Positions 17,304-17,678 of a DNA stretch of 27,695 nt are shown here, piece after piece. Source of the DNA: a virus; IMG/VR virus record IMGVR_UViG_3300045988_163776, positions 128,001 to 155,695 of that record. One strand, given 5' to 3'. Both the position numbers and the translations under genes were made by a program. The notes below the pieces were generated by a model. It searched no databases. It had not been told where the DNA came from and worked only from the letters and a program-made list of their open reading frames with translations. Positions within the stretch are counted from its first letter, which is position 1; each line of letters starts with the position of its first letter.

Positions 17304-17678
17304 ATGATATATGTAAATGGTAAAGTCTTTATTTGTGATACAGAAGATGACGTAAAAAATCTTCCAACAAATCGGACTCCTGGATGTGTGGCTAAAGTAG
17401 CTAGCACTTCTAATATATATAAACTAAATGCCTCTGGCAAATGGATTCTACAAACCTCTAGTGGAGGAGGAGGCTCTTCAGAAGATATCCATATTAATAA
17501 TGCTTATCTCGATGAAGATGAAAATCTTATACTTGAATTTAATACAAGTTATAAAGAACCTTTAAAGGTTAATATCGGTTCTATTAATGAACCGGAAATC
17601 TTTTTATTACAAGAAGAAATAAAGAAAAACAAAGTTTAGGACGTTAGTGAAGATTTCATTAATAGTTTGTTCAGTTAA
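17304..17678 (+). CDS. small late protein; TAG at 17637-17639 likely read through to TAA 17676-17678
   Basis: aaaggag RBS. The track ORF ends at TAG 17639. The 12-codon read-through extension QDVSEDFINSLFS matches the C-terminus EEYINSLFTASSN of the next gene. Confidence 0.5.

What the first reader, a model, noticed from the sequence alone, without database searches (positions are those of the whole stretch)
17637..17678. Read-through of a TAG 'stop' creates a C-terminal tail matching the next gene's C-terminus
Gene 17304 nominally ends at TAG 17637. Continuing in frame gives QDVSEDFINSLFS before TAA 17676. The downstream gene (17694-18389) ends ...EEYINSLFTASSN. A shared E(D/E)(F/Y)INSLF(S/T) tail argues that the TAG is decoded and that the motif is functional (e.g. 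a common docking peptide on the virion). This provides independent support for recoding from conservation rather than ORF length.
Basis: seen in the sequence. Interest (0 to 1): 0.55.

Follow-up and report, generated by a model that had tools for sequence, protein, structure and literature searches.

The report
Recoded TAG precedes conserved C-terminal tail
In this gut phage the TAG "stop" is read as glutamine, so a small protein keeps a short tail peptide also carried by the neighbouring fibre-like protein; this matched tail pair recurs in many phages of gut Clostridia and probably helps the fibre proteins assemble.

Summary
TAG 17637-17639 is followed in frame by DVSEDFINSLFS and TAA 17676-17678, and the next gene ends ...VTEEYINSLFTASSN. 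None of 20,000 random 13-mers from the window's proteins match that well.

The TAG is decoded. The window is a TAG->Gln (code 15) phage fragment with a tRNA-CUA 330 nt upstream. An 81%-identical relative has CAA at exactly this codon. A 61%-identical relative has GAA and no TAG in the tail. Codon changes after the TAG are rich in synonymous changes only in this frame.

It is not a dedicated read-through switch, because the TAG position is not conserved and four other window genes also have a TAG 4-12 codons before their real stop.

The tail is the signature C-terminus, [IV][TS]xx[E/F/Y]I[DN]xLF plus 0-6 residues, of a large uncharacterised fibre-like family (about 114 of 120 listed members). 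In most related loci long enough to show both genes, the gene just upstream carries it too. Tails match better within genomes than between, at protein level rather than DNA level.

The function is inferred: a portable docking or assembly peptide, possibly binding the conserved N-terminal motif of fibre proteins. The recoding is a known kind. No curated family or solved structure matches the tail module.

The parts
16788..16816 (+). Promoter-like site (TTGAAA, 17 nt spacer, TG, TATAAT; 11 of 12) upstream of the suppressor tRNA
   Evidence: This is a consensus match only.
16887..16974 (+). tRNA with CUA anticodon (amber suppressor), 88 nt, with a 15-nt extra arm. The acceptor stem UGGGGAU/AUCCCCA plus G73 resembles the phage's own tRNA-Gln(UUG).
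   Evidence: ARAGORN. Rfam tRNA 57.7 bits. Conserved upstream of the gene-17304 homolog in L002, L003 and L008-L010. Aligned to tRNA-Gln(UUG).
17089..17111 (+). Terminator-like hairpin between the tRNA and gene 17304
17304..17678 (+). Gene for a 124-aa small protein: N-terminal beta-domain, Gly/Ser linker, second small domain, helix, loop containing the TAG-encoded residue 112, then the tail. The real stop is TAA 17676-17678.
   Evidence: Full-length homologs of 125-130 aa. AlphaFold2 model (low confidence).
17637..17639 (+). In-frame TAG codon, decoded as Gln
   Evidence: CAA at this codon in L007, TAG in L008-L010, GAA in L002 and L006.
17643..17672 (+). Tail motif VSEDFINSLF of gene 17304
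17677..17683 (+). Shine-Dalgarno AAGGAGG of gene 17694, overlapping the TAA stop of gene 17304. The stop-then-SD arrangement is kept in relatives.
17694..18389 (+). Gene for a 231-aa alanine-rich, mostly helical fibre-like protein with no in-frame TAG. It belongs to a family with more than 1200 database hits.
   Evidence: Weak PHROG tail and tail-fibre hits. AlphaFold2 mean pLDDT 77.5.
17712..17762 (+). Conserved N-terminal motif KEYVSKERFAQYDTKIK of the fibre-like protein. In the model, strand 7-9 is presumably paired with the start of the tail.
18342..18371 (+). Tail motif VTEEYINSLF of gene 17694, followed by TASSN and the stop
   Evidence: F226 invariant; I222 and L225 at least 90%.
18397..18423 (+). 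Terminator-like hairpin closing the two-gene unit
18449..20881 (+). Gene for an 810-aa fibre protein with 9 in-frame TAGs. Its N-terminus MDIVSKERLKLYNDLLK matches the N-motif HMM, and it lacks this tail.
   Evidence: window cluster reads T > NT > N.

Best explanation
The window comes from a large (about 156 kb) AT-rich phage, probably of gut Clostridia, that uses genetic code 15 (TAG = glutamine).

Shown: TAG 17637 is an ordinary recoded Gln codon in a loop of a 124-aa small protein, and translation continues to TAA 17676. The 12 residues after it hold a conserved C-terminal module, consensus [IV][TS]-x-x-[E/F/Y]-I-[DN]-x-L-F plus 0-6 residues. The same module ends the adjacent fibre-like protein. 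The arrangement 'gene with tail only, then fibre-like gene with N-terminal motif plus tail, then gene with a related N-terminal motif only' recurs in diverse related phages and prophages, and tails co-vary within genomes at the protein level.

Inferred: the tail is a short strand plus an N-capped amphipathic helix that acts as a portable docking or assembly peptide joining the products of this gene cluster. The most likely target is the conserved N-terminal strand-helix motif of the fibre proteins. Because a TAG precedes the tail, the complete tail-bearing protein can be made only once the phage's suppressor tRNA is active.
For: Recoding:
- Reading TAG as sense raises + strand ORF coverage from 17.0 to 21.6 kb. 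It joins fragments into an 810-aa fibre (9 TAGs), an HNH endonuclease (10), a collagen-like fibre (3) and a C1 peptidase (5).
- A tRNA-CUA lies 330 nt upstream and is conserved there in relatives.

TAG = Gln:
- CAA sits at this exact codon in L007, and there are reciprocal TAG/CAA swaps at ILQT.
- Gln (always CAA) is the commonest sense residue opposite TAG in orthologs.
- A peptidase TAG aligns to the conserved Gln of the papain DQG motif in 3ois.
- TAG alternates with CAA/CAG in the GPQ collagen repeats.

The tail is translated:
- Homologs at 57-61% identity keep ...EEFIKGLFE and ...qEFITSLFK in frame.
- Window versus L008 has 3 synonymous and 0 non-synonymous changes in the tail. Over all pairs, changed codons are 29 synonymous to 44 non-synonymous in this frame, against 6:60 and 7:62 in the other frames.

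The tail is a functional module:
- About 114 of 120 listed family members end with it. F226 is invariant.
- 145 of 900 ORFs in related loci end with it, against about 5 expected.
- The upstream neighbour carries it in most loci long enough to show both genes.
- Distant small proteins attach it through Gly/Ser linkers.
- Within-genome tail identity is 5.23 of 10 against 3.77 when shuffled, p about 5e-5, while identical residues often use different codons.

Docking onto the N-motif:
- The AlphaFold2 model has only two strands, 7-9 and 214-216.
- By eye, 11 of the 13 non-redundant clusters where the whole run could be followed have as many tails as N-motifs; the HMM confirms the full order only for the window, L008 and L011.
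Against: - There is no proteomic evidence for the read-through peptide.
- The suppressor tRNA has an unusual long extra arm and G73, features of tRNA-Ser, and Ser is the second most frequent residue opposite TAG.
- The docking function is not shown. No multimer model or coordinates were available, so the N-strand/tail-strand pairing is inferred only from the secondary-structure output of a monomer model at pLDDT 65-78.
- The N-motif HMM detected the downstream gene's motif in only a few loci.
- In one large clade the two tails differ (IDSEDLTNIF against IPSASIKGLF).
- The within-genome test ignores phylogenetic non-independence.
Confidence: 0.8

Rival explanations
1. The tail is a foldon-like trimerisation or registration cap at the end of a coiled coil. 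It would be an intrinsic folding element of each protein, not a peptide that docks onto another protein.
For: In the fibre-like family it follows a long helical region. A profile search places the T4 fibritin coiled coil just before its foldon against the stretch just before the tail (E = 0.2, not significant). The helix at 97-110 precedes the tail in gene 17304.
Against: Many small proteins carry the tail directly after a Gly/Ser-rich linker with no coiled coil. The tail is only about 10 residues. Within-genome matching between different proteins is not expected for a purely intramolecular cap. There is no sequence or fold similarity to the foldon.
Confidence: 0.2
2. Dedicated programmed read-through: the TAG is a regulated switch that yields two isoforms, 111 aa without the tail and 124 aa with it, in a set ratio.
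For: The TAG sits in the loop just before the tail. It is kept in all relatives at 94-99% identity. Host RF1 may still compete with the suppressor, so some truncated product is plausible (inference). Late-gene regulation by recoded stops has been proposed (bioRxiv 10.1101/2021.08.26.457843).
Against: The position is not conserved: CAA in L007, GAA in L002, and a TAG at a different tail position in L006. TAG is used as a sense codon throughout the late genes, and four other window genes have a TAG 4-12 codons before their stop. No read-through-stimulating structure is evident.
Confidence: 0.1
3. The TAG is decoded as serine rather than glutamine, because the suppressor tRNA looks like a class II tRNA (long extra arm, G73).
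For: The 15-nt extra arm and G73. Ser is the second most frequent residue opposite TAG. The acceptor stem of the L002 copy is not Gln-like.
Against: CAA sits at this codon in L007. Gln (CAA) is the top residue opposite TAG, followed by Gln-like E, K, H and R. TAG sits at the catalytic Gln of the papain DQG motif in two lineages. TAG alternates with CAA/CAG in GPQ repeats. The fibre proteins are Ser-rich, which inflates chance Ser matches.
Confidence: 0.06
4. TAG 17637 is the true stop. The downstream 39 nt are untranslated, and their resemblance to the next gene's end is a DNA-level repeat, a gene-conversion relic or a regulatory element.
For: A 12-nt exact match (CATTAATAGTTT) lies between the two tails. 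Standard-code gene callers end the protein at ...KNKV (P0004, P0006, P0145).
Against: Synonymous changes are enriched only in the coding frame. Relatives have sense codons at the TAG position. Identical tail residues in the two genes often use different codons across genomes, for example 2 of 8 identical codons in L014 and in L031. The motif is conserved across more than 1000 proteins with diverse codons.
Confidence: 0.03

Closest known systems
Genetic code 15 (TAG->Gln) recoding in gut phages: crAss-like and Lak phages, the clades of Borges et al., and phAss-1 (PMC9523058, PMC10607447, bioRxiv 10.1101/2021.08.26.457843)
   Same: In-frame TAGs are concentrated in structural, lysis and homing-endonuclease genes. 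The phage encodes a tRNA-CUA. TAG aligns with Gln in homologs. The host is presumably a standard-code Bacillota bacterium, as proposed for phAss-1.
   Different: There is no detectable nucleotide similarity to any annotated phage record. The suppressor tRNA carries a 15-nt extra arm. No release factor or aminoacyl-tRNA synthetase gene is seen in the window.
Programmed stop-codon read-through giving C-terminally extended isoforms (Q-beta A1 protein, retroviral gag-pol; MDH1x, PMC5133446)
   Same: Translation past a stop codon adds a functional C-terminal peptide.
   Different: Here the codon is reassigned genome-wide by a dedicated tRNA, and the stop is not conserved at this site (CAA or GAA in relatives). 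The long form is therefore the normal product, not a minor isoform.
T4 fibritin foldon and similar C-terminal elements of phage fibres
   Same: A short conserved element lies at the very C-terminus of a helical fibre-like protein in a fibre gene cluster.
   Different: There is no sequence or fold match (E = 0.2 to the coiled coil only; one search found no PDB fold hits). The tail is about 10 residues rather than 27. It also occurs on non-coiled-coil proteins after flexible linkers.
Shared short C-terminal docking peptides, such as encapsulin cargo-loading peptides and the acidic Phe-terminated tails of T7 gp2.5 and gp4 (recalled from memory, not tested here)
   Same: Different proteins carry the same short C-terminal peptide, often after a flexible linker. 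It is acidic with a key aromatic residue near the end, and such peptides are used to bind one common site.
   Different: There is no sequence relationship, the partner here is unknown, and the context is a fibre gene cluster.

Membership tests
Code-15 (TAG->Gln) recoded phage | In-frame TAGs break conserved genes, and reading them as sense restores full-length ORFs | tested here: met
   fibre 810 aa (9 TAGs), HNH endonuclease (10), collagen-like fibre (3), C1 peptidase with SLH domain (5).
Code-15 (TAG->Gln) recoded phage | TAG positions align with Gln in homologs | tested here: met
   CAA in L007 at the finding's codon. CAA is the top residue opposite TAG. The papain DQG Gln aligns to a TAG.
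Code-15 (TAG->Gln) recoded phage | Phage-encoded suppressor tRNA with CUA anticodon | tested here: met
   Its charging identity was not testable, and the extra arm is atypical.
Code-15 (TAG->Gln) recoded phage | TAG is not used as a terminator | tested here: inconclusive
   All 12 standard-code ORFs that end in TAG continue to a TAA or TGA. Conservation of the extension was verified only for gene 17304 and for the peptidase SLH domain.
Code-15 (TAG->Gln) recoded phage | Peptides spanning TAG sites carry Gln | not testable with these tools
   This needs LC-MS/MS, as in PMC9523058.
Dedicated programmed read-through site | The stop codon is conserved at the site across homologs | tested here: not met
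   CAA (L007), GAA (L002, L006), TAG (window, L008-L010).
Dedicated programmed read-through site | A read-through-stimulating context or RNA structure lies downstream | not tested
   No dedicated fold analysis was run. The downstream sequence evolves as coding sequence.
Unnamed fibre-like family (relatives of gene 17694) with the C-terminal tail | C-terminal [IV][TS]xx[E/F/Y]I[DN]xLF followed by 0-6 residues | tested here: met
   Both window genes carry it.
Unnamed fibre-like family (relatives of gene 17694) with the C-terminal tail | Membership of a curated family or a solved structure | tested here: not met
   Pfam, PHROGs and NCBIfam give no hit above threshold for the fibre-like family or the small-protein relatives. 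PDB sequence and fold searches found nothing significant.
T4 fibritin foldon | Sequence or fold similarity of the C-terminal element | tested here: not met
   E = 0.2, and the alignment stops before the foldon; no fold matches.

The most novel reading that the evidence does not exclude
The tail is a portable docking peptide (a short strand plus an N-capped helix ending in L-F) that binds the conserved N-terminal strand-helix motif of the next fibre protein. The products of the cluster (tail only, then N-motif plus tail, then N-motif only) would then assemble head-to-tail into a multi-protein fibre in a large group of phages of gut Clostridia. In recoded lineages, a TAG placed before the tail would make this assembly step depend on the late switch of genetic code.
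Probability: 0.25. Interest if true: 0.65.

Novelty: new member of a known kind. Interest (0 to 1): 0.45.

Why it matters
For annotation, this is a clear case where standard-code gene calling cuts a functional element off a protein. Public databases hold both the 111-aa truncated form and the 124-aa full form. Conservation of a C-terminal motif gives evidence for recoding that does not depend on ORF length.

For phage biology, the analysis reveals a short C-terminal module with no match in Pfam, PHROGs, NCBIfam or the PDB, and a conserved gene order in the fibre clusters of many gut Clostridia phages. Prophages in cultured strains carry it too (Eubacterium plexicaudatum ASF492, Clostridium sp. 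chh4-2), so the proposed docking role can be tested directly.

Tried and rejected
- Nucleotide search of 16600-18500 against annotated phages found only an unrelated tRNA hit. tblastn of the fibre-like protein and blastn of the tRNA-CUA found nothing.
- A full-text search for the motif strings (EIDALF and similar) returned only irrelevant papers.
- Pfam, PHROGs and NCBIfam scans of the small proteins and of the fibre-like family gave no hit above threshold.
- PDB profile search: only a non-significant fibritin coiled-coil hit and a repeat artefact.
- Foldseek of the small-protein model against BFVD gave nothing at E <= 0.001. Foldseek of the fibre-like model against PDB gave no matches.
- I tried to fetch loci for an 'IYDGG'-tailed small protein, to test whether tail matching extends to another tail type. 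No loci were found.
- An HMM of the 34-residue N-terminus was too insensitive to call the divergent N-motifs of most downstream genes, so the gene-order pattern rests largely on reading the sequences.
- The first chance simulation timed out and was rerun.
- Rejected: a DNA-level repeat or gene conversion as the cause of the similarity, and TAG as a true stop.

Full report
**1. Observation**

Gene 17304 has a good Shine-Dalgarno sequence (GAAAGGAG). It reaches an in-frame TAG at 17637-17639 and continues as GAC GTT AGT GAA GAT TTC ATT AAT AGT TTG TTC AGT to TAA 17676-17678. That stop overlaps the AAGGAGG of the next gene, ATG 17694. The next gene ends ...LTEVTEEYINSLFTASSN.

The 10-residue cores VSEDFINSLF and VTEEYINSLF give an ungapped BLOSUM62 score of 42. 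None of 20,000 random 13-mers from the window's other proteins reach it (maximum 35), and no other C-terminus in the window exceeds 21.

**2. The TAG is a sense codon here**

The window is about 31% G+C, and all genes identified lie on the + strand.
- Reading TAG as sense raises + strand coverage by ORFs of at least 100 aa from 17.0 to 21.6 kb.
- It also fuses fragments into an 810-aa fibre protein (9 TAGs), an HNH homing-endonuclease-like gene (10), a collagen-like fibre (3) and a papain-family peptidase with an SLH domain (5).
- Several other genes have no in-frame TAG, including 1092-2735, 4257-5294 and the AAA ATPase.
- Sixteen tRNA genes are present. One has a CUA anticodon at 16887-16974, 330 nt upstream of gene 17304. 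It is conserved in that position in every related locus long enough to show it.

This is the known pattern of code-15 phages (bioRxiv 10.1101/2021.08.26.457843, PMC9523058, PMC10607447).

**3. Direct evidence at this codon**

Seven database relatives of the gene product exist. Five are called through the TAG with the tail, and two are truncated at ...KNKV. Their DNA shows the following:

| Source | Identity to window | Codon at window TAG position | Tail |
|---|---|---|---|
| L008-L010 | 94% | TAG | Unchanged through ...INSLF, with three synonymous changes in its codons (AAT>AAC, AGT>AGC, TTG>CTG) |
| L007 | 81% | CAA | IQDVSEEFIDGLFN*; has TAG where the window has CAA (ILQT) |
| L002-L005 | 61% | GAA | EPTTEEFIKGLFE*, no TAG in the tail |
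| L006 | 57% | GAA | Has a TAG at a different tail position (STqEFITSLFK*) |

Across the five sequences, changed codons after the TAG are 29 synonymous to 44 non-synonymous in this frame, against 6:60 and 7:62 in the other two frames. The segment is therefore translated and under purifying selection. The TAG is not conserved at this site, so it is one of many recoded codons and not a dedicated read-through switch. Four other window genes also have a TAG 4-12 codons before their real stop.

**4. Which amino acid**

Gln is favoured on four grounds:
- CAA sits at this very codon in L007.
- Gln (always CAA) is the most frequent sense residue opposite TAG in ortholog alignments, followed by Ser, Lys and Glu (some rows come from off-frame ORFs).
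- The first peptidase TAG aligns with the conserved Gln of the papain 'DQG' motif in PDB 3ois, and the L002 ortholog has a TAG there too.
- TAG alternates with CAA/CAG in the GPQ collagen repeats.

One caveat remains. The tRNA-CUA has a 15-nt extra arm and G73, which are Ser-like features. Its acceptor stem is tRNA-Gln-like in the window but not in L002. I give serine about 6%.

**5. What the tail is**

The downstream gene belongs to a large family (1206 hits). About 114 of the 120 listed members end in [IV][TS]xx[E/Q/D/F/Y]I[DN]xLF followed by 1-6 residues. In a 33-sequence alignment the final F is invariant, and I222 and L225 are at least 90% conserved.

The family has no match above threshold in Pfam, PHROGs or NCBIfam and no solved relative. 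The only PDB hint is a non-significant match (E = 0.2) of the preceding coiled coil to T4 fibritin just before its foldon.

A profile search with the gene-17304 family found 235 proteins, and most share only the N-terminal beta-domain. Many of these are 85-100-aa proteins built as beta-domain, then Gly/Ser linker, then ...(A/L)TxxEIDxLF. Others carry a different short tail, (I/V)IYDGGxx. The tail is therefore a portable C-terminal module.

**6. A conserved gene arrangement with matched tails**

In four distant loci fetched by protein identity, and in most of the viral loci and the closest bacterial-genome loci that are long enough, the gene immediately upstream of the fibre-like gene also ends with the motif. 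L033 has four such genes in a row.
- In all fetched loci, 145 of 900 ORFs of at least 80 aa end with the motif, against about 5 expected from its internal frequency.
- Over 26 non-redundant adjacent pairs, tails are more alike within a genome (5.23 of 10 identities) than after shuffling between genomes (3.77, sd 0.21; p about 5e-5). The test ignores phylogenetic non-independence.
- Examples are ISDEQIDALF twice in L013 and ...EILSLF with ...EILALF in L014.
- Identical residues often use different codons: 2 of 8 identical codons in L014 and in L031. The match is therefore kept at the protein level and is not a DNA repeat.

**7. How it may work (inferred)**

AlphaFold2 of the small protein (mean pLDDT 61) puts the TAG-encoded residue in a loop between a helix (97-110) and a short terminal helix (117-123).

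AlphaFold2 of the fibre-like protein (mean pLDDT 77.5) is almost all helical. It has exactly two strands, residues 7-9 (KEY, in the conserved N-terminal motif) and 214-216 (LTE, at the start of the tail), followed by helix 219-224 (EEYINS). Two lone strands are presumably paired with each other, but I could not inspect the coordinates.

Read by eye, the clusters follow an order: tail only, then N-motif plus tail (one or more genes), then N-motif only. Of the 13 non-redundant clusters where I could follow the whole run, 11 have as many tails as N-motifs. L033 has one extra tail, and the upstream gene in L013 starts with a different motif. An N-terminal HMM confirms the full order for the window, L008 and L011 but is too weak for most others.

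The window's two tailed genes lie between terminator-like hairpins at 17089-17111 and 18397-18423, so they form one unit.

My best reading is that the tail is a docking or assembly peptide, most likely binding the N-terminal motif of fibre proteins. A foldon-like capping role is the main rival for function.

**8. Host and tractability**

Relatives of the fibre-like gene occur mainly in genomes and MAGs of gut Clostridia. They include the cultured strains Eubacterium plexicaudatum ASF492 and Clostridium sp. chh4-2, and both carry the adjacent tailed pair in standard code. The window's peptidase has an SLH domain, and genes use strong Shine-Dalgarno sites. Both fit a Bacillota host. Cluster members come from contigs of about 155-157 kb.

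**9. Verdict**

The recoding is a further example of a known phenomenon. The added value is the demonstration by conservation, plus a widespread tail module and gene order that match no curated family or solved structure. Their function remains to be shown.

Noticed in passing
window 16887-16974; L002 5691-5779; L008 5580-5669: The amber-suppressor tRNA (CUA) carries a 15-nt extra arm that is identical in three lineages, which is unusual for a Gln-type tRNA. The window and L008 copies have a tRNA-Gln-like acceptor stem (UGGGGAU...G73), while the L002 copy has AGCGGUG...G73. No similar tRNA exists in the annotated phage collection.
   Followed up: partly
window 20834-20881 and 21490-21540; L002 7523-9529 and 9592-10311: A second matched pair of C-terminal tails. 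The 810-aa fibre ends ...GGISFSSSLTYEPITT and the collagen-like fibre ends ...SVISLSDDLNYEGVTL. The L002 orthologs end ...LTLSTDLSYELV and ...ITSLSTDLTYEAVS, so they are again more alike within a genome.
   Followed up: partly
proteins P0169-P0283 (not in the window): Small proteins sharing the N-terminal beta-domain of gene 17304 carry alternative short C-terminal peptides after a Gly/Ser linker. These are ...ATxxEIDxLF, a longer ...ATDEEhxxMhxxhF, or ...(I/V)IYDGGxx. This suggests interchangeable docking tails. Genomic context of the IYDGG type could not be fetched.
   Followed up: partly
window 15039-16001: An HNH homing-endonuclease-like gene (PHROG 374, E = 4e-40) lies among the tRNA genes and has 10 in-frame TAGs, the highest TAG density in the window. 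Borges et al. describe a similar recoded homing endonuclease.
   Followed up: no
window 23312-24241: A papain-family (C1) peptidase fused to an SLH domain, possibly lysis-related or binding the host S-layer. It has 5 in-frame TAGs, one at the position of the conserved Gln of the papain DQG motif and one inside the SLH domain 12 codons before the stop. Both are conserved as TAG in L002.
   Followed up: partly
window 24509-25759: A radical SAM enzyme (CNLKCRYC cluster motif; Pfam Radical_SAM E = 5e-15) with a Cys-rich C-terminal region lies next to the fibre and lysis genes. Its substrate is unknown.
   Followed up: no
window 1092-2735 and 5291-6700: Two large Cys-rich proteins look like paralogs (shared ...LCLS(I/V)HPLD(Y/F)...NW(T/R)SC...GEYR(Q/A)G...) and have no family hits. 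The second has a TAG 10 codons before its stop, followed by an acidic tail EEEEEEYYGG.
   Followed up: no
window 11037-11109 and 13082-13156: ARAGORN reports two tRNA-like genes with irregular anticodon loops, a 4-base 'gatt' and a 2-base 'aa' anticodon. L008 has a counterpart of the latter.
   Followed up: no
L001 949-1965 and 1991-2182: In the only viral-contig relative of the gene-17304 N-domain, the domain occurs as a 63-aa ORF with no tail, just upstream of a 996-aa fibre protein. A neighbouring 338-aa protein with leucine-rich-type repeats starts with what looks like a related N-terminal sequence (by eye).
   Followed up: no
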